Part shown: positions 16,315 to 56,515 of the stretch, piece by piece | Layout of the letters: every line of letters starts with the position of its first letter | How positions within the stretch are numbered: position 1 is the first letter of the stretch | Assembly: GCF_035650855.1 (NCBI RefSeq) | Contig: NZ_DASRGV010000061.1 | Coordinates: 299 to 64,298, forward strand | Origin: Actinocrinis sp. | GTDB taxonomy: Bacteria > Actinomycetota > Actinomycetes > Streptomycetales > Catenulisporaceae | Direction: 5' to 3' | DNA: 64,000 bases | Notes under the pieces: generated by a model | Database searches by the model: none | What the model was told of the DNA's origin: nothing | The model's input: the letters and a program-made list of their open reading frames with translations, nothing else | Made by a program: the position numbers and the translations under genes

Positions 16315-17325
16315 ATGCTGAACCACAACGGCGCGGGCACCACCCGTGCCGGACGCACCACGCCGCGGTCGCGCCGGACCGTGGCCGGACTCTGCACCAT
16401 AGCCCTGGTCGCATTCGGCGCCTCGCTGACGGCGGGCGCCGCGTCCGCGAACGTCGTCGCCGATGCTGCGGGCGGCGCGCCCGCCAACACCGCGGCCTCG
16501 TCGAGCGGCACCGTCCACTACGTGCACACGCACGGCCGCACCGTCCGCGTCGAAACCCACGGCCGCCACGGCGTGGTCGCCCAGCACGGCGCGCGGTCCC
16601 AGGCCCGGGTCCGGCCGCAGGCCGGCGGCGACCTGATCTACAACGGCGGTCCGGTCGAGCACAGCCCCACGGTGTACCTGGTCTTCTGGGGCAACCAGTG
16701 GGACAGCGACAGCAACGGCGTGCAGTCGTACCTGCAGGGCTTCTTCGGCGGGCTCGGCGGCTCCGGCGACAACTGGTCCACGATCATGACGCAGTACACC
16801 GACAGCAGCGGCTCGGGCCCATCCTTCAACGGCTCGGTGCTCGGCGGCACTTGGGTCGACGACTCCTCCTCCGCTCCGAGCAACGCGTCGCAGTCCGACA
16901 TCGCGGCCGAGGCCGTGGTCGGCGCGCAGCACTTCGGAGTCTCCGGCCCGGACGCGGACGTGTTCGTGGTCAGCCCGAGCGGCACCAGCCCCGACGGCTT
17001 CCCGAACTCCGGCTTCTGCGCCTGGCACGACTGGAACGGCACCACCGCGTACACGAACATGCCGTACGTCCTGGACGCCGGCTCCGGTTGCGGCGCCAAC
17101 TCGGTGCAGAACCAGCTCGACGGCTACAGCATCGTCGGCGGGCACGAGTACGCCGAAGCCGTCACCGACCCCGAGCCCTCCAGCGGCTGGGTGGCCTCCG
17201 ACGGCGAGGAGAACGGCGACCTGTGCGCCTGGCAGGGGCTGACCACCCTGAGCCTGTCCACCGGCACCTACGCGATCCAGCCGACCTGGAGCAACAACGC
17301 GGGCGGCTGCGCCACCTCCGGCTGA
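16315..17325 (+). CDS. Secreted protein of unknown function (Phi-1/EXORDIUM-like pattern, HEYAE..TDP motif)
   Basis: RBS AAGGAGA, signal peptide, strong codon bias; LIYNGGPV..PTVYLVFWG, FCAWHD, YTNMPY, GGHEYAEAVTDP, ENGDLCAW. The family link is recalled, not searched. Confidence 0.75.
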   Translation: MLNHNGAGTTRAGRTTPRSRRTVAGLCTIALVAFGASLTAGAASANVVADAAGGAPANTAASSSGTVHYVHTHGRTVRVETHGRHGVVAQHGARSQARVRPQAGGDLIYNGGPVEHSPTVYLVFWGNQWDSDSNGVQSYLQGFFGGLGGSGDNWSTIMTQYTDSSGSGPSFNGSVLGGTWVDDSSSAPSNASQSDIAAEAVVGAQHFGVSGPDADVFVVSPSGTSPDGFPNSGFCAWHDWNGTTAYTNMPYVLDAGSGCGANSVQNQLDGYSIVGGHEYAEAVTDPEPSSGWVASDGEENGDLCAWQGLTTLSLSTGTYAIQPTWSNNAGGCATSG

Positions 17326-44186: not shown

Positions 44187-45332
44187 GTGAGAATCGAAGA
44201 CGTCTACATCCGAGGCACGGGCGTGCGATTGCCCGCGCGGCTGATGGTGCAGGACGCCGTCGCTTCAGGCGAGTGCGATCCGCAGCTGGTCGCGCGTACG
44301 GGAGCCGTCTCGGTCTGCATCTCGGCCGACGAGTCGGCAGCTGAGATGGCGGTCTGCGCGGCCCGTGACGCGCTGCGCCGCGCCGGATCAGCCCCCGACG
44401 ACATCGAGCTCATCCTGCACGCCGACACCTACCACCAGGGCCAAGACCTGTGGCCGGTGGCCTCCTACATCCAGCGCGAGACCGTGCGCAATCAGTGCCT
44501 CGCGGTCGAGATCCGGCAGATGTCCAACGGCGGCCTGGCGGCGCTCGACCTGGCTTGCGCCTACCTTCGCCGGGCCGAACACCGGGCGGATGCGCTCTTG
44601 ACCGCCGCCGACAGGTTCTGCCCTCCGGGGATCGACCGCTGGCGCACCGATCCGGGCACGCCGTACGCGGACGGCGCCGCGGCCTTGGTCCTCTCCCGGC
44701 GCGGCGGCTTCGCCCGGCTGCTTTCGGTGGCGGTCACCGCGGACTCGGAACTCGAGGAGATGCACCGCGGCGAGGAGCCGTTCAGCCCGGCTCCGCTGAG
44801 CATCCGCACTCCCGTGGACTTCGCCGCCGCCAAGCGCTTCTTCACCAGCCGCTACGGCCTCTCCTTCGCGATCGGACGCACCACGGCCGGTCAGCGCGCC
44901 GTCGTCAAGGAGGCGCTGGCCGACGCGGAGCTCGAACTCGAGGAGGCGCAGTGGATCATCTTGCCGCACTTCGGCCGGCGCCGGATCGAATCCATCTACC
45001 TCCACCAGTACGGCATCCCCATCGAACGCACCACCTGGGAGTGGAGTCGCACCGTCGGCCATCTCGGCGCCGCCGACCAGTTCGCCGGCCTCGACCATCT
45101 GGTGTCCACCGGGGCGGCCCGGCCCGGCGATCACTGTGTCCTGATCTCGGTCGGCGCCGGATACAGCTGGGGCGCCGCCGTCGTGCAGATCACCGAGCAG
45201 CCCGCCTGGAGCGCGCAGCGCGCGGGCTTCGCCGCGGACGCCGCGGATGGAACGGCACCTCGAACAGAACCGGGCCGCGCTGAAGCAGCGTGCTTGGCCG
45301 ACGGCCCCACCCAGAGAAAGGACCAGCCTTGA
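44187..45332 (+). CDS. Ketoacyl-ACP synthase III-like enzyme with Ser at the nucleophile position
   Basis: VYIRGTGVRLP, ELILHADTYHQG..LWP.ASYI, EIRQMSNGG (Ser where FabH has Cys), DRWRTDPG..Y.DG.AALVLS, LPHFG and GHLGAADQ. Confidence 0.88.
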   Translation: MRIEDVYIRGTGVRLPARLMVQDAVASGECDPQLVARTGAVSVCISADESAAEMAVCAARDALRRAGSAPDDIELILHADTYHQGQDLWPVASYIQRETVRNQCLAVEIRQMSNGGLAALDLACAYLRRAEHRADALLTAADRFCPPGIDRWRTDPGTPYADGAAALVLSRRGGFARLLSVAVTADSELEEMHRGEEPFSPAPLSIRTPVDFAAAKRFFTSRYGLSFAIGRTTAGQRAVVKEALADAELELEEAQWIILPHFGRRRIESIYLHQYGIPIERTTWEWSRTVGHLGAADQFAGLDHLVSTGAARPGDHCVLISVGAGYSWGAAVVQITEQPAWSAQRAGFAADAADGTAPRTEPGRAEAACLADGPTQRKDQP

Positions 45333-46678: not shown

Positions 46679-46999
46679 ATGGCCACGATCACCTACCGCC
46701 ACCCGGACGGGACCACGACCGTGCTGGACGTGCCCTCCGGAAGCAATGTCATGCGCGGCGCCCTCGCCAACGGCGTGGAGGGCATCGAGGGCGAGTGCGG
46801 TGGCGACGGCATCTGCGCCACCTGCCACGTGTACGTCGAGCACTGCCCGATCGCCTTCCCGCCGGCCGACGAGAACGAAGACGAGCTGCTCGACTGCACC
46901 GCCAGTCCGCGCCGCGACAACAGCAGGCTCTCCTGCCAGCTGCCGATCACCGACGAACTGAGCACCCTGGTGGTGCTCCTCCCGGAAAAGCAGGTTTGA
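46679..46999 (+). CDS. 2Fe-2S ferredoxin (putidaredoxin-type)
   Basis: ECGGDGICATCHV...RLSCQ. Confidence 0.95.
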   Translation: MATITYRHPDGTTTVLDVPSGSNVMRGALANGVEGIEGECGGDGICATCHVYVEHCPIAFPPADENEDELLDCTASPRRDNSRLSCQLPITDELSTLVVLLPEKQV

Positions 47000-48227: not shown

Positions 48228-48563
48228 GTGCCTCACATCACCTATCTGCGAGCCGACGGAACCAGCGACACCGTCGACGTCCCACTCGGCACCAGCGTCA
48301 TGCGCGGGGCGGTACGGGAGGGCGTGGCAGGTATCGTCGCGGAGTGCGGCGGCGCCGGCATGTGCGGCACCTGCCACATCTTCCTGCCGGAGCATGAGCG
48401 GGTCGCCCGCGGCATCACCCCGATCCACCCCCTGGAGGACGAGGTACTGGAGATCACCTCCACGCCGCGACGGGCGACCAGCAGGCTCGGCTGCCAACTC
48501 GCCGTGACTGAGCAGTGCGACGGGCTCACCGTGGAGCTGCCCGAACACCAGGTCCTGCCTTAA
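48228..48563 (+). CDS. Second 2Fe-2S ferredoxin
   Basis: ECGGAGMCGTCHI...SRLGCQ. Confidence 0.95.
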   Translation: MPHITYLRADGTSDTVDVPLGTSVMRGAVREGVAGIVAECGGAGMCGTCHIFLPEHERVARGITPIHPLEDEVLEITSTPRRATSRLGCQLAVTEQCDGLTVELPEHQVLP

Positions 48564-48594: not shown

Positions 48595-48635
48595 GCCTCG
48601 GGGCGGCATCCGGTGTCCGGATGCCGCCCCGAGGC
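48595..48635. terminator. Bidirectional hairpin between convergent genes
   Basis: GCCTCGGGGCGGCATCCGG-TGT-CCGGATGCCGCCCCGAGGC (19-bp stem). Confidence 0.88.
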
Positions 48636-48678
48636 GTTGCCGGGCCCGGCTTCGATCGGGCCCGGCTGCGGCCGTTGC

Positions 48679-49785
48679 TCAGGCCAGCAGAATGTCCGCG
48701 AAGGTCTTCGCCGGCGCCGTCTCGAAGCGCAGCGCGACGTGGCTCGCCGCGGCCACCACGTCGCGCCAGTGCCGCTCCAGCGGGTGGGACTGGGACAGGC
48801 CGTGCGTGCCGGCCGCGCGCACCAGCGCGTTGACCGCGCTCACCAGTATTTCGGCTGCCAACGCGGCATCCCGCGCGTTGCGTGCGAGCAGTTGCGGCGT
48901 GCAGTTCCCGGCATCGGCGGTCGCGGCGTTGCGCTCCACGAGCAGCCGCGCGCCGTCGATCAGCGCGGCCGACCGCGCCAGCCCTTCGTCGCCGGACGGA
49001 GTGCGGCGAGCGTGCTTGAGCAGCTCTACGCACGAGCCGAGCGCACCGAGCGCCGCGCCAAGGGCGGGCGCGACAAAGGTCAGTGTGCCCACGGCCTGGA
49101 AGGACGTGTTGTGGCAGACCGCCTGCGAGGTGCGGTTCGGCCCGGCCAGCACCTCGGCGCGCGCGACCGAGCGGTGGTCCGGCACGAAGGTCTCCGGCAG
49201 CACGACGCTGTGGCTGCCGGTCGCCCGCATGCCGGTGCTGTCCCAGGTCTGCTCGACCCGGCACGCGGACGCCGGCAGCGCGAAGAACCGCGCGTCCCCG
49301 ACTCCTTGCACCGGCCCGAGGGCGCACAGCAGTACCCAGTCGCTCCATGCGACGCCGCTCACATAGCGCCAGGTGCCGCTGACCAGCCAGCCGCCGTCGG
49401 TCTTGGTGACCGCACCGGACGGGATCAGGCCGGTGGCGATGATCGCGTCCGCTCCGTCCGCCCACAGCTCGTCCTGGCCCTCGACGGGCAGGTACGCGGC
49501 GAACCGCGCCGAATACGCCGACAGCGAGGCGAACCACGCGGTCGCGGCGCAGGCCTCGCCCACCGCGGTGACCGCGCGGGTCAGCTCGGCGAAGGTGCCC
49601 TCGGTGCCGCCGTAGCGGGCCGGCACCAGGTGCCGGGCGAATCCGGCCTCGCGTACGGCCGCGATCACCTCGGGTGACAGGTCGCCGTCCCGGTCGGCCT
49701 GCGCGGCGTTGCGGGCTGCGGACTCGGCCACGCCATGGGCCGCGCCGAGCAGCCCGGTCGAGGGTGGCGCTAGTGCAATGGACAT
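48679..49785 (-). CDS. Acyl-CoA-dehydrogenase-fold flavin-dependent monooxygenase (HsaA/ActVA-ORF5-like)
   Basis: GFARHLVPARYGG, GEACAATAW, GWLVSGTWRYVSG, WDSTGMRATGS.SV and GTHG...HPLERHWRD motifs. Confidence 0.88.
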   Translation of the reverse strand: MSIALAPPSTGLLGAAHGVAESAARNAAQADRDGDLSPEVIAAVREAGFARHLVPARYGGTEGTFAELTRAVTAVGEACAATAWFASLSAYSARFAAYLPVEGQDELWADGADAIIATGLIPSGAVTKTDGGWLVSGTWRYVSGVAWSDWVLLCALGPVQGVGDARFFALPASACRVEQTWDSTGMRATGSHSVVLPETFVPDHRSVARAEVLAGPNRTSQAVCHNTSFQAVGTLTFVAPALGAALGALGSCVELLKHARRTPSGDEGLARSAALIDGARLLVERNAATADAGNCTPQLLARNARDAALAAEILVSAVNALVRAAGTHGLSQSHPLERHWRDVVAAASHVALRFETAPAKTFADILLA

Positions 49786-49934
49786 CGCTTGCTGCCTCTC
49801 GTGCTCGGGTGGCAGGACACGCCTAGCCCGTGGCCTGCTCGATTTCGTGCGCTGATTCAGCATTCGCCGGCCCGGCGAGTACGGGGGTCCGCCGCCGGGC
49901 TCGGGTCGCGTTCGGGTCGCGGATGACCGATCGC

Positions 49935-49977
49935 AGCATCCTGGTGCGGGCTCGAACCGGGCTTGCCGCCCGCTGGA
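49935..49977 (-). promoter_or_regulatory. SARP-type promoter of the monooxygenase gene
   Basis: Minus strand TCCAGCG (49977), GCAAGCC (49966), TCGAGCC (49955) in 11-bp phase; 8 bp; -10 GATGCT. A further 11-bp-period repeat TCGGGTCGCG x2 lies at 49901-49921. Confidence 0.65.
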
Positions 49978-50041
49978 AGCGGGCCGCCCGGACGGCTCGG
50001 CACTATCCCCTTCCCGGCGGCGGCGGGCGGGTGGCGGTCGC

Positions 50042-51706
50042 TCATCCGGCGACCCCGGAGCCCGCGGCCGTGGACGCCTGTGCTTCGGTGTGCCGCTGCT
50101 CGAGCGCCGGCGGCGCGCCCCCGGGGCCGCAGGCCAGCACGTAGTCCGCGGCGTCGCTGAGGGCGAGCAGGGCGGCCGCGCCCAGGTCGCGGCCGACGCC
50201 GACCGTGCGCCAGGTGCGCCCGCCGAGACCGAACCGGATCAGCACCCTGGTCGCAGGCCGGCCGTCGTCCTCCGTGGTGATCGGCCGCGCCTCGTGGTCG
50301 AGCAGGTCCAGCGTCTCGATCTGCGGTACTGCCGGGCGCAGGGCCGCGCGCAGGGCCCGGAACAGTGCGCTGACAGGCTCGTCGGCGACGCCGGTCGCGG
50401 TCACGGTGCGGCCGTCCCGCTCGACGCGCAGCACCGCGCGTGTGGAGGTCTGCGCCCGGTCCCGGGACCCGGCCGCGGAGAGCCGCCAGGCCTCGATCTG
50501 GAAGACCCTGGGAACCGGTTCGTCGGCAAGGTGCTCCCGCAACAACAGCTCGAACGAGGCGTCGGCGGCCTCGACGGCGTAGCCGAGCCTGCCCAGCTCC
50601 TTGATCCGCAGCATCGCCCGGTTGACCCGCTCGTCCGCCGCGCGCACCTGGTAGCCGAGCTCGCGCGCCTTCAGCTCGACGGACGAGCGGCCGCCGAGGT
50701 CGGAAACCAGCACGCGGCTGCGGTTGCCGATCCGCTCCGGCTCGATGTGCTGGTAAAGGCTCGGATCCAACCGGACCGCCGAAGCGTGCAGGCCGCCCTT
50801 GTGCGCGAACGCGGAGGAGCCCACGTACGGGGCCGATGACGCCACCGGGGCGGCGGCCAGTTCGCCGATCTCGTGCGCCGTGCGCGCCATCCCGGCCAGT
50901 TGCGCGGGGGACAACAGCGCGCGTCCCTCCTTGACCGCCAGATTCGCCACCACGCTGAACAGGTTGGCGTTGCCGCAGCGCTCGCCGTAACCGTTGGCGG
51001 TGCCCTGGACCTGTCCGGCACCCGCGCCGACCGCGAGCATCGTGTTGGCGACGGCGCAGCCGGCGTCGTCATGGCAGTGGATGCCGACCGGGATGCCGCG
51101 CTCCGTCGTGGCGGCGACGATATCCGCAAGCTCGGTGGGCAGGGTGCCGCCGTTGGTGTCGCAGAGCACCACCTTCTCCGCTCCGGCGGCGATCGCGGTG
51201 TCTGCGACGGCGAGCGCATACGCGCGGTTCGCGCGATAGCCGTCGAAGTAGTGCTCGGCGTCCACGAAGACTCGGCGCCCCTGCGCGAGCAGCTGGCGCA
51301 CCGAGTCGCGGATCATGCGCAGGTTCTCCGCCAGGCTGGTGCGCAGCGCGATCTCGACGTGGCGGTCGTGGCTCTTGGCGACCAGCGTGACCACCGGCGT
51401 GCCGGCCTCGAGCAGCGCGAGGATCTGCGGGTCGCGGCCGGCGTCGGCGTCCGGCCGCCTGGTCGCGCCGAACGCGGCGAGTTGCGCGTGGCTGAGCTCC
51501 AGCTCGCGGGCGGCGCGCCGGAAGAAGTCCGTGTCCAGCGGTACGGCGCCCGGCCAGCCGCCCTCGATGAAGTCCACGCCGAAAGCGTCGAGCCGCCGGG
51601 CGACGGCGAGCTTGTCCGCGACGGTCAGCGACAGGCCCTCCTGCTGGACGCCGTCGCGCAGGGTGGTGTCGTAGATCTGCACCGCTCGGCGGTGGTTCGC
51701 GGCCAT
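50042..51706 (-). CDS. cimA: Citramalate synthase (DRE-TIM metallolyase, LeuA-related)
   Basis: YDTTLRDG.QQEG, FIEGGWPG, FDAEH-like VDAEHYFDG, CDTNGG, HCHDD, GYGERCGNANL and AFAHKGGLHASAV; C-terminal regulatory domain; RBS GAGGAG. Confidence 0.88.
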   Translation of the reverse strand: MAANHRRAVQIYDTTLRDGVQQEGLSLTVADKLAVARRLDAFGVDFIEGGWPGAVPLDTDFFRRAARELELSHAQLAAFGATRRPDADAGRDPQILALLEAGTPVVTLVAKSHDRHVEIALRTSLAENLRMIRDSVRQLLAQGRRVFVDAEHYFDGYRANRAYALAVADTAIAAGAEKVVLCDTNGGTLPTELADIVAATTERGIPVGIHCHDDAGCAVANTMLAVGAGAGQVQGTANGYGERCGNANLFSVVANLAVKEGRALLSPAQLAGMARTAHEIGELAAAPVASSAPYVGSSAFAHKGGLHASAVRLDPSLYQHIEPERIGNRSRVLVSDLGGRSSVELKARELGYQVRAADERVNRAMLRIKELGRLGYAVEAADASFELLLREHLADEPVPRVFQIEAWRLSAAGSRDRAQTSTRAVLRVERDGRTVTATGVADEPVSALFRALRAALRPAVPQIETLDLLDHEARPITTEDDGRPATRVLIRFGLGGRTWRTVGVGRDLGAAALLALSDAADYVLACGPGGAPPALEQRHTEAQASTAAGSGVAG

Positions 51707-51720
51707 CTTTCTCCTCTGCG

Positions 51721-52773
51721 TCACGGCGCGTGCTCTGCGGCGGCCGGAGAGCGGTCCAGGTGGTCTAGGAAGCGCGGCGCGGCGGCCGGCAGCCGAAGGC
51801 CCGCTTCGTCGCGGTAGGTGCCTCGGGCGCGATGATGCGGATGCTCGGCCGCCTCCTCGAGGCTGAGCACCGGGGTGACGCAGGCTTCCGTGCCCTCGAA
51901 CCGCGTGGCCCACGAGTCTCGGTCCGCCTCGGCGAAGCGCAGCGCGAACAGTCGGCGCAGCGCGGGCCAGTGCTCCGGGTCGTCGCGGTCGGGCAGCTCA
52001 TCCGGATCCAGGCCGAGTCCGCGCACGAACTGTGCGTAGAACCGCTCCTCCAGGGCACCCACCGCGACATGACGGCCGTCCGCGCAGGTGTACACGGTGT
52101 AGAAGGGGGCGCCGCCGTCGAGCAGGTTGCGCCCGCGCCCGCGGCCCCACTGCCCGGCCGCCGCCATCGCGGCCAGCATGGTGAGCAGGCTGGCGGTGCC
52201 GTCGACGATCGCGGCGTCGATGACCCGTCCCACCCCGGTCGTGCGGCGCTCGATCACCGCGGCCAGGACGCCGACCGCCAGCGGCAGCGCACCTCCGGCG
52301 AAGTCTCCGACCAGGTTGAGCGGCACCACCGGATCCCCGCCCTCGGGACCGATCGCGTCCAGCGCGCCGGAGAGCGCCAGATAGTTGATGTCGTGGCCGG
52401 GCGTGTGGGCCAGCGGACCGTGCTGTCCCCAGCCGGTCATCCGGCCGTAGATCAGCCCCGGGTTGCGTGCCTGGCACTCGCGCGGGCCGAAGCCGAGCCG
52501 CTCGGCCACTCCCGGCCGGAATCCCTCCAGCAGCACGTCGCAGCCCTCGACGAGGCGCAGCAGCTCGGCCAGCTCCCGCGGCCGCTTGAGATTCAACGCG
52601 ACGCAGCGCCGACCCCGGTCGAGGCCGCGGTGCCAGGAGGCGAACGGGCGTTCGCCCTCGGCCCGGTCGATGCGCACCACCTCGGCGCCCAGGTCCGCCA
52701 ACAGCGTCGCAGCGTAGGGGACGGGCCCAATCGCGGCGAGTTCCAGGACGCGCAGTCCTTCGAGCGGGCTCAT
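51721..52773 (-). CDS. CaiB/BaiF family III CoA-transferase, alpha-methylacyl-CoA racemase-like
   Basis: LEGLRVLELAAIGP, EGFRPGVAERLG, GHDINYLALSG, NLVGDFAGGA and NLLDGGAPFY motifs. Confidence 0.9.
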   Translation of the reverse strand: MSPLEGLRVLELAAIGPVPYAATLLADLGAEVVRIDRAEGERPFASWHRGLDRGRRCVALNLKRPRELAELLRLVEGCDVLLEGFRPGVAERLGFGPRECQARNPGLIYGRMTGWGQHGPLAHTPGHDINYLALSGALDAIGPEGGDPVVPLNLVGDFAGGALPLAVGVLAAVIERRTTGVGRVIDAAIVDGTASLLTMLAAMAAAGQWGRGRGRNLLDGGAPFYTVYTCADGRHVAVGALEERFYAQFVRGLGLDPDELPDRDDPEHWPALRRLFALRFAEADRDSWATRFEGTEACVTPVLSLEEAAEHPHHRARGTYRDEAGLRLPAAAPRFLDHLDRSPAAAEHAP

Positions 52774-52779
52774 GTCCGC

Positions 52780-52811
52780 AGTGTGGGATTCCCGGCTCGA
52801 CTCCCGCTGGA
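52780..52811 (-). promoter_or_regulatory. SARP-type promoter of the racemase-cimA operon (leaderless)
   Basis: Minus strand TCCAGCG (52811) and TCGAGCC (52800); 8 bp; -10 CACACT (52785-52780); the ATG at 52773 sits at the predicted +1. Confidence 0.75.
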
Positions 52812-53018
52812 GGGGACGCTCCGGCGCCCACTGCGGCGCCGGAGGACGAGAGTCGCGCATAGCGGCGCGGCTGACGATGCCTCCGCATCCGCTCGAACCG
52901 CGGCGGAGTCCCGGTCCCGGTACGCCGCAGTCCGTGGCAACCGGAGCGGAAGAGTACTGAAATGCCCGATTGGTCGGCCGGTCGGTCCGGGCCCGCCCCG
53001 CCGGACGGCAACGGCTGT

Positions 53019-53050
53019 TCGAGGAGCCTTCGAGAATGCGGACACATACT
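53019..53050 (+). promoter_or_regulatory. SARP-type promoter of the FAAL operon
   Basis: TCGAGGA (53019) and TCGAGAA (53030); 8 bp; -10 CATACT (53045-53050). Confidence 0.75.
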
Positions 53051-53142
53051 CCGACCTGAGGCCCACCGGCCTCGGCGCGACACACGCGGAATCCTTCCGC
53101 GGCGCCGGGGCGCCGGGCCACAGACGGGACAGGGGGACGGAG

Positions 53143-54933
53143 ATGACCGGACGCCAAACGTTCACCGAGCTGGTGCGGCGGCACGCCGCAAACCGGCCCG
53201 GACGGGACGCGCTGATCGTGGTGGACGAGACCGGCCGGACGCGGCGGATCGGCTACGCGCGGCTGGATCGTGAGTCCAGAACCCTCGCCGCGTGGCTGCA
53301 CATCCACGGCGCGACCGGCGAACGCGTGCTGATCCAACAGCCCGACGCCTACCAGTTCGCCGTGTCGCTGTTCGCCTGCCTGTACGCCGGCGCGATCGCC
53401 GTGCCCGGCCCGAATCCCAGCGGGCTGCGGCACTCCGAGCGCAGGGTGCTCGGGATCGTGCGGGACGCCGGGGTCCGCTTCGTCATGACAGACGGTCACA
53501 ACGCCGGCGCGGCCAGCCAGGTTCTCGCGCTCGGCGGCTACGGGGAGGTCACCTGTGTGGCGACGGACACGCTGCTGAGCCTGCCCTCCGCCCCGGAGCC
53601 GTCCGACTGGCGCATGCCCGAGATCAGCCCGGACGCCGTCGCGCTGCTGCAATACACCTCGGGCTCCTCCGGCGACCCGCGCGGCGTCATGGTGAGCCAC
53701 GCCAACCTGCTCGCCAACCAGGCGGCGATTCAGCAGACCCTGCGTACCACACCGGACACCGCGGTCGGCGGCTGGCTGCCGCTGCACCACGACATGGGCC
53801 TGATCGGGCAGCTCCTGCACCCGCTGTGGCTCGGCGCCACCAGCGTCCTGATGTCGCCGATCTCCTTCGCGAAGCACCCGGCCAACTGGCTGCGGCTGAT
53901 CTCCGAGCACCGGCTTGCGGTGTCCGCGGGTCCGAACTTCAGCTACGACCTGTGCCTGCGCAAGATCACCGACGAGCAGCTCTCCGGAGTGGACCTGAGC
54001 GACTGGCGCTGCGCCGTCAACGGCGGCGAACCGGTGCGCCCGGAGACCATGCGCCGCTTCGCCGAGCGCTTCGCCCCGTTCGGGCTGAGGCCCTCCGCGC
54101 TGCGCGCGGGCTACGGCCTGGCCGAGGCGACGCTGATGGTCGCCTGCACCGCGGGCGGACGGGGAGCCCCGGCGGTCGAGGCGGACCGCGCCGCGCTGGA
54201 GCAGCGTCGGCTCTGGCCGCCCGCGGCGAACCGGCCGAGCCGGACCCTGAGCAGTTCGGGGCGCGTATACGGACACGAAGTCAGGATCGTGGACCCGGAG
54301 ACCGCGGCCGAGCTGCCCGACGGCGCCGTCGGCGAGATCTGGCTGCGCGGTCCGAGCGTCGCCTCCGGCTACTGGGGCCGCCCGCGGGAGAGCGCGGAGG
54401 GTTTCGCCGCGCGCACCTGCGCCGACGAGCGCGGCTTCCTGCGCACCGGGGACCTAGGCTTCCTGAAGGACGGCGAACTGTACGTCACCGGCCGGATCAG
54501 CGATCTGATCATCGTGGCGGGACGCAACCTGCATCCGCAGGACATCGAACAGTCGATCCAGCGGATCAGCGCCCTGTTCGGCGCCGCGGTCGCCTTCCCG
54601 GTCGAGGCGGACCGCGAGCACGTGGTGCTGGTGCAGGAGGTGCGCCCCGGTTCCACGGGCGGCGAGGCGGACCTGGCCGAACTGGCGACCGCCGTGCGGG
54701 AGCGGGTGTCCGCGGAGTTCGCGGTGCAGGCCGCCGGAGTGGTACTGGTGCGGCCGGGTACGGTGCGCCGCACCACCAGCGGCAAGCTGGCGCGCAGCGC
54801 GGTGCGCTCGATGTTCCTCGAAGACCGGCTGGAACCGCTGCACGAGCTGATCGACCCCCGGATCCGGCAGCTGGTGCGGCCCAAGGGCCGGGTACGGACA
54901 GCCGGCGGGTCGGCCGGGAAGGCGGCGGCGTGA
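53143..54933 (+). CDS. Fatty acyl-AMP ligase (FAAL)
   Basis: LLQYTSGSSGDPRGVMVSH.NL, GWLPLHHDMGLIG, GYGLAEATL, FLRTGDLGF, GRNLHPQDIE and RTTSGKLAR; long insertion after the EATL motif, typical of FAALs. Confidence 0.93.
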   Translation: MTGRQTFTELVRRHAANRPGRDALIVVDETGRTRRIGYARLDRESRTLAAWLHIHGATGERVLIQQPDAYQFAVSLFACLYAGAIAVPGPNPSGLRHSERRVLGIVRDAGVRFVMTDGHNAGAASQVLALGGYGEVTCVATDTLLSLPSAPEPSDWRMPEISPDAVALLQYTSGSSGDPRGVMVSHANLLANQAAIQQTLRTTPDTAVGGWLPLHHDMGLIGQLLHPLWLGATSVLMSPISFAKHPANWLRLISEHRLAVSAGPNFSYDLCLRKITDEQLSGVDLSDWRCAVNGGEPVRPETMRRFAERFAPFGLRPSALRAGYGLAEATLMVACTAGGRGAPAVEADRAALEQRRLWPPAANRPSRTLSSSGRVYGHEVRIVDPETAAELPDGAVGEIWLRGPSVASGYWGRPRESAEGFAARTCADERGFLRTGDLGFLKDGELYVTGRISDLIIVAGRNLHPQDIEQSIQRISALFGAAVAFPVEADREHVVLVQEVRPGSTGGEADLAELATAVRERVSAEFAVQAAGVVLVRPGTVRRTTSGKLARSAVRSMFLEDRLEPLHELIDPRIRQLVRPKGRVRTAGGSAGKAAA

Positions 54934-55277
54934 ACGCGCGATTGCTCACTCTTCCGCACGCGCAGCGCGAGGCCGCGCTACGCGAGTGGCTGGTGCGCCG
55001 GCTGGCCAGGTACCTCGGCCGTCTGGACATCGACCCGCTGGTCCCGCTCGCCGAGTACGGCATCGACTCGCTGGTCGCGCTCAATCTCTACGGCGATGTC
55101 GAAGAGGAACTCGGCCTACCCGTCGACGTGTGCGTAGTGCTCGACTATCCGACCGTCGCCGCCCTTGCGGAGCATCTGTCGCAGCAGGCTGAGGACAACG
55201 CCGGGCGACCTCGTGCCGCCGCTCCCGGCGCTGCCCACCCCGGCGATACGCGAACCTCAGACAGGAGCCGGCCATGA
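54930..55277 (+). CDS. Acyl carrier protein
   Basis: GTG overlaps the FAAL stop; PLAEYGIDSL (phosphopantetheinyl Ser) and DYPTVAALAEHL. Hidden at the end of the track ORF 53292..55277. Confidence 0.92.
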   Translation: MNARLLTLPHAQREAALREWLVRRLARYLGRLDIDPLVPLAEYGIDSLVALNLYGDVEEELGLPVDVCVVLDYPTVAALAEHLSQQAEDNAGRPRAAAPGAAHPGDTRTSDRSRP

Positions 55278-56515
55278 ACGCAGGGAGCGAACCCGCGCCC
55301 CGAATCGCCTTCGCTTTCACCGGGCAGGGCGCGCAGTACCCGGGAATGACCGCCCGGCTCTACTTCGGACACGACGGCTATCGCCGCCGCCTGGACGCCG
55401 CCGCGGAGGCGCTGCGTCCGTACACCGGGACTTCGATCACGGACCTGATCGTGCGGGGCGACCTGAGGGTCCATCAGACCGGATTCACCCAGCCGACTAT
55501 GTTCGCCGTCGAATACGCCCTCGCCGCCACCCTGCTGGACGCCGGGGTCAGGCCCGTGGCCGTGATCGGTCACAGCATCGGCGAGTTCGCCGCCGCGGTT
55601 GTCGCCGGAGCGCTCAGCCTCGATGACGCCGCGCTGCTGGTAGCGGTACGCGGCGCGTACATGCAGTACCTTCCGAGCGGCGGCGGGATGCTCGCGGTGC
55701 GCGCCGCGCCCGAGCAGCTCGAGCGGTTCGTGCGGCGCGAGGCGAAGGTCGGGTTCGGCGCGTTCAACGGTCCGCGTGCCACGGTGCTCTCCGGCGACCT
55801 CGGTGCGCTCGAACGCATCCAGGACGAGCTGGCGGCGCTCAATGTGCTCGCCCGGCCGCTCCAGGTGTCGCACGGATTCCATTCGCCGCTGATGCAGCCG
55901 ATGCTCCAACGCTTCGCCCGGGTCGCTTCGCGGGTGCCGCCGCGCGCGCCGAAGCTGCCGTTCTACTCGACCGTGCGCGGCCGCAGACTGCTGAACGAGG
56001 CGCTGGGCGCGCTCTATTGGACCGAGCACATCAGCGCGCCGGTGCGGTTCGCCCAGGCCACGCAGCGGCTGCTGGCGGAGCAGGGCCTTGACACGGTACT
56101 GGAGATCGGCCCGAAACCGGTGCTGGCCAAGTTGATCAAGGCGATGGCCGGCGACGGCGGCCCGGCCTGTGTGCCGGTTTGCCGCAGCGAGGACACCGAC
56201 GCGGCCGCGCTGGCCGCGCTGATCGCCGACCTGCTGCCGAACGACGCCCTGGCCGACGACCCGGTGCGGAAGGCGGTGTACGCCGCGGTGGCGCGGTTGG
56301 TCAACGACCCCTCGGTGCGTCTCGGACCGGACGTCGCGCTGCGTGGCGACCTCGGCTTCGATTCGGTGATGGTGATGCAGCTGACGTATCAGCTCGAACA
56401 GCAGCTGCCCGCCCTCGGCAAGCTCTCGCTGCCGGACATGCTCGACAGCATCGTCACGCCCGCGACCCTGGTGGAGTACCTGCACGGCCAGCTCTCCGCC
56501 GACCTGGCCGCATGA
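55274..56515 (+). CDS. Acyltransferase-ACP didomain (stand-alone AT with a C-terminal carrier domain)
   Basis: FAFTGQGAQ, TQP..F, GHSIGE (active Ser), VSHGFHS, YW..HI..PVRF and LEIGP; C-terminal DLGFDSVM carrier motif. Confidence 0.92.
   Translation: MNAGSEPAPRIAFAFTGQGAQYPGMTARLYFGHDGYRRRLDAAAEALRPYTGTSITDLIVRGDLRVHQTGFTQPTMFAVEYALAATLLDAGVRPVAVIGHSIGEFAAAVVAGALSLDDAALLVAVRGAYMQYLPSGGGMLAVRAAPEQLERFVRREAKVGFGAFNGPRATVLSGDLGALERIQDELAALNVLARPLQVSHGFHSPLMQPMLQRFARVASRVPPRAPKLPFYSTVRGRRLLNEALGALYWTEHISAPVRFAQATQRLLAEQGLDTVLEIGPKPVLAKLIKAMAGDGGPACVPVCRSEDTDAAALAALIADLLPNDALADDPVRKAVYAAVARLVNDPSVRLGPDVALRGDLGFDSVMVMQLTYQLEQQLPALGKLSLPDMLDSIVTPATLVEYLHGQLSADLAA

What the first reader, a model, noticed from the sequence alone, without database searches (positions are those of the whole stretch)
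50042..52773. Citramalate synthase and a methylacyl-CoA racemase-like enzyme recruited into the cluster
Seen: a two-gene operon divergent from the FAAL under the same promoter signature. Known: CimA makes citramalate from pyruvate and acetyl-CoA, feeding 2-oxobutyrate, isoleucine and propionyl/2-methylbutyryl units; AMACR-type enzymes (GHDINY, GDFAGG) epimerise 2-methylacyl-CoAs. Inference: dedicated supply and stereo-editing of a methyl-branched acyl unit, or CoA activation of a citramalate/alkylmalate moiety that is itself incorporated.
Basis: partly seen in the sequence, partly recalled or inferred. Interest (0 to 1): 0.58.

Follow-up and report, generated by a model that had tools for sequence, protein, structure and literature searches.

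The report
Starter-supply genes of a polyketide cluster
Extra, cluster-specific copies of citramalate synthase and 2-methylacyl-CoA racemase sit in the priming part of a trioxacarcin-like aromatic polyketide gene cluster, where they most likely make and stereo-edit the isoleucine-derived branched starter unit; published trioxacarcin genes of this kind exist but have no assigned function.

Summary
On the minus strand, 52773-51721 encodes a 350-aa alpha-methylacyl-CoA racemase homologue. It scores 362 bits to M. tuberculosis MCR and keeps the catalytic His/Asp. After a 14-nt gap, 51706-50042 encodes a 554-aa citramalate synthase (TIGR00977, 543 bits, cut-off 450). Both are divergent from a FAAL gene.

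Both are accessory paralogues. Relatives carry them in addition to housekeeping copies that are only 53-57% identical. In trees, the cluster-linked copies form their own clades. They co-occur in every genome I checked, in Actinocrinis, a sister genus and Streptomyces.

The context is not a FAAL lipid line. It is the priming cassette of a type II polyketide cluster. A DpsC-type Ser-KSIII lies in the window. SARP, KSalpha/KSbeta/ACP, cyclases and an AlkZ-like glycosylase lie just past its right end.

Gene content and order match the trioxacarcin cluster (TxnA5, TxnP1, TxnP2, TxnP3). There the starter is isoleucine-derived 2-methylbutyryl-CoA, and TxnP1-P4 are listed as unknown.

Best reading: CimA boosts 2-oxobutyrate/isoleucine supply and the racemase epimerises 2-methylbutyryl-CoA. 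This is inferred, not shown.

The window copy is the only cimA in this assembly, but that is probably an assembly gap. The scan had not reported this gene pair on other DNA.

The parts
51721..52773 (-). Cluster-specific paralogue of alpha-methylacyl-CoA racemase (MCR/AMACR type, CoA-transferase family III fold), 350 aa (P0002).
   Evidence: PF02515 scores 260 bits. It scores 362 bits to M. tuberculosis MCR 1x74. Residues aligned to MCR R91, H126, D127, N152, D156, Y224 and E241 are invariant in 19 cluster-linked and 8 housekeeping copies. A second, housekeeping copy at 57% identity lies elsewhere in the genome.
50042..51706 (-). Cluster-specific paralogue of citramalate synthase CimA, 554 aa (P0001), with an eroded C-terminal allosteric domain.
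   Evidence: TIGR00977 scores 543 bits against a cut-off of 450. The domains are HMGL-like, HCS_D2 and LeuA_dimer. The catalytic motifs are invariant. LeuA_dimer scores 42 bits here against 88-100 in housekeeping copies.
51707..51720 (-). 14-nt spacer with a GGAG-type ribosome-binding site between the racemase stop and the cimA ATG.
   Evidence: Read directly from the sequence.
52774..53142 (.). Divergent promoter region. On the racemase side, AGTCGAG (52802-52796) and CACACT (52785-52780) lie 6 nt before the ATG. On the FAAL side, TTCGAGGAGCCTTCGAG (53018-53034) is followed by CATACT.
   Evidence: Both blocks are conserved in G001, G002 and G006. A SARP gene lies just right of the window.
48679..49863 (-). 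HsaA-like flavin monooxygenase (acyl-CoA dehydrogenase fold), probably the third gene of the same transcription unit.
   Evidence: Pfam Acyl-CoA_dh_2. NCBIfam HsaA scores 181 bits, below its cut-off. No terminator lies between cimA and this gene.
48595..48635 (-). Intrinsic terminator-like hairpin (19-bp stem followed by a T-run) that ends the minus-strand unit.
44187..45332 (+). DpsC-type priming ketosynthase III/acyltransferase with an active-site Ser; counterpart of TxnA5.
   Evidence: It scores 349 bits to the DpsC structures 4xs7/5tt4. MSNGG aligns to VSNGG of DpsC.
53143..54933 (+). Fatty acyl-AMP ligase-type adenylating enzyme; counterpart of TxnP1.
   Evidence: AMP-binding scores 236 bits. 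It hits the FAAL subfamilies of NCBIfam, below their cut-offs.
54936..55277 (+). Stand-alone acyl carrier protein.
   Evidence: PP-binding scores 49 bits.
55274..56515 (+). Acyltransferase-ACP didomain protein.
   Evidence: Acyl_transf_1 scores 195 bits and PP-binding 33 bits.
56512..57360 (+). 4'-phosphopantetheinyl transferase.
   Evidence: ACPS scores 51 bits.

Best explanation
The two genes are biosynthetic-cluster copies of primary-metabolism enzymes. They serve the starter unit of a trioxacarcin-like type II polyketide synthase.

Shown:
- Both are true family members by sequence.
- Both are paralogues distinct from the housekeeping copies.
- They are co-inherited with a DpsC-type priming KSIII, an acyl-AMP ligase, carrier proteins, P450/ferredoxin genes, a SARP regulator, a minimal PKS and an AlkZ-like glycosylase.

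Inferred:
- The extra CimA condenses pyruvate and acetyl-CoA to (R)-citramalate.
- Housekeeping LeuCD/LeuB turn citramalate into 2-oxobutyrate. [quoted passage not shown]
- The CimA allosteric domain is strongly diverged, which suggests escape from isoleucine feedback.
- The racemase interconverts (2S)- and (2R)-2-methylbutyryl-CoA, so the KSIII (or a stereospecific acyl dehydrogenase) receives the enantiomer it accepts.
- The KSIII then primes the KSalpha/KSbeta pair.
For: Identity:
- CimA passes the TIGR00977 equivalog cut-off (543 vs 450). Its RD, E, DT, HxH and HxxGxH motifs are invariant.
- The racemase scores 362 bits to MCR, with all catalytic residues kept. The genome's ordinary CaiB-like paralogue has GYD in place of GHD.

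Paralogy:
- Same-genus genomes G001, G002, G003 and G006, plus G010 from a sister genus, have a cluster-type cimA (65-86% identity) and a housekeeping one (54-55%).
- Ten Streptomyces genomes likewise have both.
- The own genome has a second racemase at 57% identity.

Trees: 12 cluster-linked CimA separate from 22 others at SH-aLRT 100. 19 cluster-linked racemases separate from the 8 housekeeping copies (plus one unclassified 60%-identity paralogue) at 99.

Co-occurrence: 19 of the 21 genomes in the sample that carry a cluster-type racemase were checked, and all 19 have a cluster-type CimA on the same contig where it is intact. In the Streptomyces genomes it lies within 17 kb.

Context:
- DpsC-type KSIII.
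- Immediately right of the window: SARP, carboxyltransferase, KSalpha, KSbeta, ACP, cyclases, MAT, KR, ARO/CYC and AlkZ-like glycosylase.
- In Streptomyces, cimA is followed 28-29 bp later by the KSIII gene.

Literature: the txn cluster reads HK-RR-TxnP1 (RkA-like ligase)-ARO-TxnA5 (KS-III)-TxnP2 (isopropylmalate synthase-like, 543 aa)-TxnP3 (acyl-CoA transferase-like)...P450-FdR-Fdx. 13C6-isoleucine labels C-13 to C-17, which points to a 2-methylbutyryl-CoA starter (PMC5659172).

Regulatory domain: identity between cluster-type and housekeeping copies is 63% in the catalytic barrel but 45% in the regulatory domain. Housekeeping copies among themselves are 75% identical there. Pfam LeuA_dimer scores 18-42 bits in the Actinocrinis and sister-genus cluster copies against 88-100 in housekeeping copies.
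Against: - No function was tested. TxnP1-P4 are listed as unknown in the only paper that names them, and I found no later assignment.
- L-isoleucine already gives the (S)-acyl-CoA, and in trioxacarcin that carbon is later oxidised, so the need for a racemase is not obvious.
- The Streptomyces cluster-type CimA keeps a normal LeuA_dimer score (86-94 bits), so loss of feedback is not general.
- Eleven housekeeping-invariant positions in the catalytic domain also differ, so a shift in substrate cannot be excluded.
- The product of the Actinocrinis cluster is unknown.
- Direct alignment to the TxnP2/TxnP3 sequences was not possible with the data on hand.
Confidence: 0.58

Rival explanations
1. CimA supplies 2-oxobutyrate, which is decarboxylated to propionyl-CoA. 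The DpsC-type KSIII primes with propionate, as in daunorubicin. The racemase then has another, unidentified substrate.
For: The KSIII is most similar to DpsC, a propionyl-selecting enzyme (349 bits). TxnA5's best hit in the paper is CosE, from the cosmomycin producer S. olindensis. The product of this cluster is unknown.
Against: In the only studied homologous cluster the starter is the C5 unit from isoleucine. This reading gives no role to a racemase that co-occurs with CimA in every carrier genome checked.
Confidence: 0.14
2. The CimA paralogue has changed substrate. It makes another 2-alkylmalate, extending a different 2-oxo acid or using a longer acyl-CoA, and so gives a non-isoleucine branched precursor.
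For: Eleven positions that are invariant in 22 housekeeping enzymes differ in the catalytic domain of the cluster clade, for example H10Q, F153Y and M188T/S. The cluster clade evolves faster.
Against: All cluster copies pass the citramalate synthase equivalog cut-off, and the Streptomyces ones score as high as housekeeping enzymes (613 vs 616-627 bits). The catalytic motifs are unchanged. Isoleucine feeding fully labels the trioxacarcin starter.
Confidence: 0.1
3. The racemase-like protein works as a CoA-transferase. It either makes 2-methylbutyryl-CoA from the free acid, as suggested for the verrucone cluster, or makes citramalyl-CoA for direct incorporation.
For: It has the family III CoA-transferase fold. 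The verrucone paper proposes a 'CoA transferase' for starter activation (PMC13515585). TxnP3 was annotated as an acyl-CoA transferase/dehydratase.
Against: It is about 58% identical to a structurally defined racemase and only about 30% identical to transferases. The His of the His/Asp pair is kept in all 27 sequences and is replaced by Tyr in the genome's transferase-like paralogue. Its length of 350 aa is that of the racemases, not the 390-430 aa of the transferases.
Confidence: 0.08
4. The two genes are ordinary housekeeping genes that merely lie next to a biosynthetic cluster.
For: This assembly has no other gene that passes TIGR00977.
Against: Relatives have both gene types. The trees separate them. 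The synteny is with cluster genes, not with the housekeeping flank. That flank is present in G000 and stops at the end of contig C215, exactly where cimA should follow.
Confidence: 0.03

Closest known systems
TxnP2 and TxnP3 of the trioxacarcin cluster of Streptomyces bottropensis (Zhang et al. 2015, PMC5659172), together with TxnA5 (KS-III) and TxnP1 (RkA-like ligase)
   Same: The gene kinds and sizes match: an isopropylmalate/citramalate synthase-like protein of 543 aa and a family III acyl-CoA transferase-like protein. The neighbours match: KS-III, acyl-AMP ligase, histidine kinase/response regulator, SARP, P450/FdR/Fdx and AlkZ-type glycosylases. Both are type II PKS clusters. Their reported identities to housekeeping homologues (58% and 56%) match what is seen here.
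   Different: The organism is different (Actinocrinis, a metagenome-assembled genome). This contig has no sugar genes, and the gene order differs. A YcaO/peptide module lies between the priming genes and the PKS. Orthology was judged from gene content and from Streptomyces intermediates (S. ficellus), not from a direct alignment to the txn proteins. The txn proteins have no assigned function.
Housekeeping citramalate synthase CimA (TIGR00977) of the pyruvate route to isoleucine
   Same: It passes the equivalog cut-off. The domain order and the catalytic motifs are the same.
   Different: It is only 53-58% identical to the housekeeping copies of its own order and falls in a separate clade. The regulatory domain is strongly diverged, with Pfam 42 bits against 88-100. 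It is embedded in a secondary-metabolite cluster.
Mycobacterium tuberculosis alpha-methylacyl-CoA racemase MCR (PDB 1x74) and Far (2g04)
   Same: It scores 362 and 312 bits. The length is the same. Every catalytic residue I checked is kept.
   Different: MCR acts on long 2-methyl fatty acyl-CoA and steroid side-chain CoA esters in catabolism. Here the presumed substrate is the short 2-methylbutyryl-CoA, in biosynthesis. Two clade-specific changes (D49R, A125P) lie next to the catalytic His.
DpsC/DpsD priming system of daunorubicin biosynthesis
   Same: It is a Ser-His-Asp KSIII that selects a non-acetate starter for a type II PKS, accompanied by an acyltransferase.
   Different: The daunorubicin cluster has no CimA or racemase, and its starter is propionate.

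Membership tests
Citramalate synthase, TIGR00977 (CimA) | Whole-protein score above the curated equivalog cut-off | tested here: met
   543.3 bits against a cut-off of 450. The next-best family (isopropylmalate synthase) scores 230 bits against 532.
Citramalate synthase, TIGR00977 (CimA) | HMGL-like TIM barrel, post-barrel subdomain and C-terminal LeuA-type allosteric domain | tested here: met
   All three domains are found. The allosteric domain is weak: 42 bits here and 18-36 in close relatives, against 88-100 in housekeeping copies.
Citramalate synthase, TIGR00977 (CimA) | Metal and substrate-binding motifs of DRE-TIM metallolyases (RD, E, DTxG, HxH, HxxGxH) | tested here: met
   Invariant in all 12 cluster-linked copies. 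The assignment of roles to these motifs is from my own knowledge.
Citramalate synthase, TIGR00977 (CimA) | Catalyses pyruvate + acetyl-CoA to (R)-citramalate; feedback by isoleucine | not testable with these tools
   Needs an enzyme assay.
Alpha-methylacyl-CoA racemase (MCR/AMACR) | Family III CoA-transferase fold with close similarity to solved racemases | tested here: met
   PF02515 scores 260 bits. It scores 362 bits to MCR and 312 to Far, against 121 or less to any transferase.
Alpha-methylacyl-CoA racemase (MCR/AMACR) | Catalytic His/Asp pair (MCR His126, Asp156) and supporting residues | tested here: met
   H127 and D157 are kept, as are R92, D128, N153, Y225 and E242, in 27 of 27 sequences. 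A CaiB-like paralogue has Tyr at the His position. The residue roles are recalled from the MCR structure papers.
Alpha-methylacyl-CoA racemase (MCR/AMACR) | Epimerises 2-methylacyl-CoA | not testable with these tools
   Needs an enzyme assay.
Trioxacarcin-type type II PKS cluster with a branched starter | KSalpha/KSbeta/ACP minimal PKS with KR, ARO/CYC and cyclases in the same cluster | tested here: met
   On the same contig, 4.3-11.7 kb right of the window.
Trioxacarcin-type type II PKS cluster with a branched starter | DpsC/TxnA5-type KS-III together with an IPMS-like protein, a family III CoA-transferase-like protein and an RkA-like ligase | tested here: met
   compared with the txn gene table.
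Trioxacarcin-type type II PKS cluster with a branched starter | AlkZ-family DNA glycosylase for self-resistance | tested here: met
   L045:16414-17550 scores 306 bits to AlkZ-like. The role of TxnU2/U4 is described in PMC8934636; I read only its abstract.
Trioxacarcin-type type II PKS cluster with a branched starter | Direct sequence orthology to TxnP2/TxnP3 | not tested
   No txn sequence was available in the collections I could query. A scan of genome contigs returned mostly housekeeping racemases.
Trioxacarcin-type type II PKS cluster with a branched starter | Product with a 2-methylbutyryl-derived C5 unit | not testable with these tools
   Uncultured organism; needs chemistry.

The most novel reading that the evidence does not exclude
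The racemase is an obligatory gatekeeper. The DpsC-type KSIII (or the cluster's large acyl-CoA dehydrogenase-like protein) would accept only the (2R) starter, or only one enantiomer. [quoted passage not shown]
Probability: 0.25. Interest if true: 0.55.

Novelty: new member of a known kind. Interest (0 to 1): 0.36.

Why it matters
It gives a concrete, testable role to two genes (the TxnP2 and TxnP3 types) that the trioxacarcin literature leaves unassigned. It shows they form a conserved, co-inherited pair in a family of clusters for DNA-alkylating aromatic polyketides. It extends that cluster family to Actinocrinis, an uncultured acid-soil actinomycete lineage. A CimA with a decayed regulatory domain may also interest citramalate and 2-oxobutyrate pathway engineering. 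The case is nevertheless the familiar pattern of a cluster carrying its own precursor-supply isozymes.

Tried and rejected
- Literature searches for an assigned function of TxnP2/TxnP3, or for citramalate synthase in type II PKS clusters, found none.
It gave one organism name (Streptomyces sp. JJ66) and nothing else of use.
- A window-wide count of TTCGAG-N5-TTCGAG with up to 2 mismatches gave 4 sites against 4.9 expected, so it is no evidence for a regulon. No sigma-70 consensus promoters were found.
- Sequencing runs: no RNA holder is listed. Expression could not be examined, and I laid no reads.
- Earlier scan notes searched by words and by sequence held no similar finding on other DNA.
- I first considered, and dropped, readings built around a lipid line: an alkylmalate or maleic-anhydride product, tetronate formation by the KSIII, and citramalyl-CoA or mesaconyl-CoA chemistry. 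The minimal PKS and the DpsC identity of the KSIII ruled these out.
- I did not map the substrate-pocket residues of Leptospira CimA. That structure ranks too low for an alignment print-out and is too distant to map reliably.
Full report
**Anatomy**

The window has about 71% G+C, so raw ORF lists are crowded with spurious frames. Third-position GC analysis picks out the real frames.

On the minus strand, an ATG at 52773 opens a 350-aa protein that ends at 51721 (P0002). Fourteen nucleotides later, after a GGAG-type ribosome site, an ATG at 51706 opens a 554-aa protein that ends at 50042 (P0001). On the plus strand, across a 369-bp spacer, a 596-aa adenylating enzyme starts at 53143.

No terminator-like site follows cimA. 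The next minus-strand gene, an HsaA-like flavin monooxygenase at 49863-48679, is followed by a 19-bp-stem hairpin with a T-run at 48635-48595. The unit is probably three genes, possibly with an internal promoter in the 178-bp gap.

**Identity of the two proteins**

P0001 has the HMGL-like barrel, the post-barrel subdomain and the LeuA allosteric domain. It passes the curated citramalate synthase equivalog model (TIGR00977) at 543 bits against a cut-off of 450. All isopropylmalate and homocitrate synthase models fall far below their cut-offs.

P0002 has the family III CoA-transferase fold (260 bits). It scores 362 bits to the M. tuberculosis racemase MCR and 312 to Far, but 121 bits or less to any CoA-transferase structure.

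The residues that align to MCR R91, H126, D127, N152, D156, Y224 and E241 are invariant in all 27 homologues I compared. The residue roles come from my memory of the MCR structure papers. An ordinary CaiB-like paralogue of the same genome has GYD where the racemases have GHD, but keeps the Asp. By sequence, this is a racemase and not a transferase.

**Both genes are accessory paralogues**

In the window's own assembly (6.2 Mb, 402 contigs, 90% complete), the window gene is the only one that passes TIGR00977. A second racemase, 57% identical, lies on another contig.

In relatives the picture is clear. Same-genus genomes G001, G002, G003 and G006, and G010 from a sister genus, each carry a copy 65-86% identical to P0001 plus a copy 54-55% identical. 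Genomes that lack the first kind have only the second. G003 is flagged as unpublished, and no claim here rests on it alone.

Names attached to database hits place the genus as Actinocrinis.

The flank of the housekeeping cimA of G001 is present in G000 on contig C215. The match runs to base 16493 of 16497, exactly where cimA should follow. The missing housekeeping copy is therefore most likely an assembly gap.

**Co-inheritance and phylogeny**

In a sample of 301 genomes of the order, 21 carry a racemase 64% or more identical to P0002. These are 7 from the window's family and 14 Streptomyces, and most of them also show a separate copy of about 57% identity.

I checked 19 of these 21, and all have a cluster-type CimA on the same contig where the contig is intact. 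In Streptomyces it lies within 17 kb.

In a maximum-likelihood tree, 12 CimA sequences, chosen by their position next to cluster genes, form one side of a branch with SH-aLRT 100. The 22 other copies on the opposite side follow taxonomy. The racemase tree does the same: 19 cluster-linked copies separate from the 8 housekeeping copies (plus one unclassified 60%-identity paralogue) with support 99. These were quick searches with midpoint rooting, so I claim no direction of transfer.

**What the cluster is**

The neighbours in the window are:
- a degenerate condensation-like protein, an old-yellow-enzyme-type reductase and an SRPBCC protein;
- a KSIII-like protein;
- a P450 with two ferredoxins and a ferredoxin reductase;
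- the monooxygenase, then the two genes of the finding;
- the acyl-AMP ligase, an ACP, an AT-ACP didomain protein and a phosphopantetheinyl transferase;
- a response regulator and a histidine kinase;
- a YcaO/dehydrogenase/peptide module.

The KSIII-like protein scores 349 bits to DpsC, the priming enzyme of daunorubicin biosynthesis, and keeps its unusual active-site serine.

The contig continues beyond the window. From 67 bases past the window's end come a SARP regulator, a carboxyltransferase, a hydrolase, KSalpha, KSbeta, ACP, a SnoaL-like protein, a cyclase, a malonyl transferase, a ketoreductase, an aromatase/cyclase, a large acyl-CoA dehydrogenase-like protein and an AlkZ-like DNA glycosylase.

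The 'FAAL line without an elongating KS' noted by earlier first-stage readers is therefore the priming cassette of a type II PKS cluster.

**Link to trioxacarcin**

In Streptomyces ficellus the homologous set lies with an aromatase, an AlkZ-like protein, an epoxide hydrolase, deoxysugar genes and the same kinase/regulator pair. The set comprises the racemase (69% identity), CimA (60%), KSIII (70%), the ligase (49%) and AT-ACP.

The published trioxacarcin cluster reads KSalpha - SARP - kinase - regulator - TxnP1 (RkA-like ligase, 579 aa) - aromatase - TxnA5 (KS-III, 344 aa) - TxnP2 ('2-isopropylmalate synthase', 543 aa) - TxnP3 ('acyl-CoA transferase/dehydratase', 417 aa) - ... P450 - TxnU2 - ferredoxin reductase - ferredoxin (PMC5659172).

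In that paper, 13C6-isoleucine labels C-13 to C-17 intact. This established an isoleucine-derived starter, proposed to be 2-methylbutyryl-CoA. TxnP1-P4 are counted there among proteins of unknown function.

I found no later paper that assigns them. A 2026 paper on a related cluster merely proposes 'a CoA transferase' for starter activation.

The match to TxnP2/TxnP3 rests on gene kind, size, neighbours and the Streptomyces intermediates. I had no txn sequence to align.

**Mechanism**

The only 2-methylacyl-CoA in such a pathway is the starter. The only link from citramalate to the pathway is 2-oxobutyrate, and through it the isoleucine route to 2-keto-3-methylvalerate and 2-methylbutyryl-CoA.

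I therefore read the pair as precursor supply plus stereo-editing of the starter. In Streptomyces, cimA is followed 28-29 bp later by the KSIII gene, which fits a starter-related role.

The cluster CimA looks catalytically ordinary. Its motifs are invariant. TIGR00977 scores are 534-543 bits in Actinocrinis and its sister genus, 613 in S. ficellus, and 616-627 in housekeeping copies.

Divergence is concentrated outside the barrel. Identity between cluster and housekeeping copies is 63% in the barrel, 46% in the subdomains and 45% in the regulatory domain. Housekeeping enzymes among themselves are 72-77% identical in all three regions.

Nine of the 29 positions that are invariant in housekeeping enzymes but replaced in the cluster clade lie in the last 85 residues. 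Pfam's LeuA_dimer score falls to 18-42 bits in the Actinocrinis and sister-genus copies. It stays at 86-94 in the Streptomyces cluster copies.

Altered or lost isoleucine feedback is thus plausible here, but it is neither shown nor general.

The racemase has only two clade-specific changes, D49R and A125P.

Why a racemase is needed is the weakest step. L-isoleucine already gives the (S)-thioester, and in trioxacarcin that carbon is later oxidised. Possible reasons are an enantiomer-selective KSIII or an enantiomer-selective acyl dehydrogenase-like enzyme in the cluster.

**Promoters**

The FAAL side of the spacer has TTCGAG-N5-TTCGAG followed by CATACT. This resembles the direct heptamer repeats bound by SARP activators (from my own knowledge) and is conserved in four genomes.

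The racemase side has a conserved AGTCGAG and a CACACT hexamer 6 nt before the ATG. That would give a leaderless or nearly leaderless transcript.

The double box is not enriched in the window as a whole. A shared SARP-type control is therefore suggested, not demonstrated.

**Verdict**

The finding is a new member of a known kind of cluster. Its two genes correspond to published genes that remain unassigned. Interest is moderate: the biology follows the familiar pattern of precursor-supply isozymes inside a cluster. The role of a racemase in priming a type II PKS is an open question that these genes make directly testable.

Noticed in passing
L045:16414-17550 (contig C61, about 16.4 kb right of the window end): An AlkZ-like DNA glycosylase gene (306 bits) lies at the far side of the PKS genes. 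This suggests the product is a DNA-alkylating agent, as in trioxacarcin and LL-D49194.
   Followed up: partly
G000 contig C215, end at 16497: The conserved flank of the housekeeping cimA stops at the contig end. In relatives G001, G002, G005 and G008 the housekeeping cimA also lies within about 1-5 kb of a contig end, so something near this locus assembles poorly.
   Followed up: partly
Alignment of CimA homologues, column of P0001 residue 212: In 10 of 22 housekeeping CimA sequences, apparently the Streptomyces ones, the second His of the HxH metal motif is Gln. All 12 cluster-linked copies keep His.
   Followed up: no
window 48228-48563 (+): A second 2Fe-2S ferredoxin gene follows the ferredoxin reductase, so the P450 operon encodes two ferredoxins (46679-46999 and this one).
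   Followed up: partly
L027:12100-14057 (G001): In G001, about 2 kb is inserted between the racemase gene and the FAAL gene. Both conserved promoter blocks are kept at its two ends.
   Followed up: no
window 57371-63812: A response regulator, a histidine kinase, a ThcOx-type dehydrogenase, a YcaO and a small peptide gene sit between the priming cassette and the SARP/minimal PKS genes. The kinase/regulator pair is also conserved in the Streptomyces and trioxacarcin clusters; I did not see the YcaO module there.
   Followed up: partly
L034 and L035 (Streptomyces G141, G102): In these two clusters the racemase lies with the P450, ferredoxin, reductase, HsaA-like and SRPBCC genes, and cimA lies 13-16 kb away. 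The racemase is often divergently adjacent to the P450 in Streptomyces.
   Followed up: partly
window 48600-55300: Near-identical sequence (half or more of the sampled words) is held by four metagenome runs from four studies labelled soil, mine or unspecified. One of them may be the source sample. I laid no reads.
   Followed up: no
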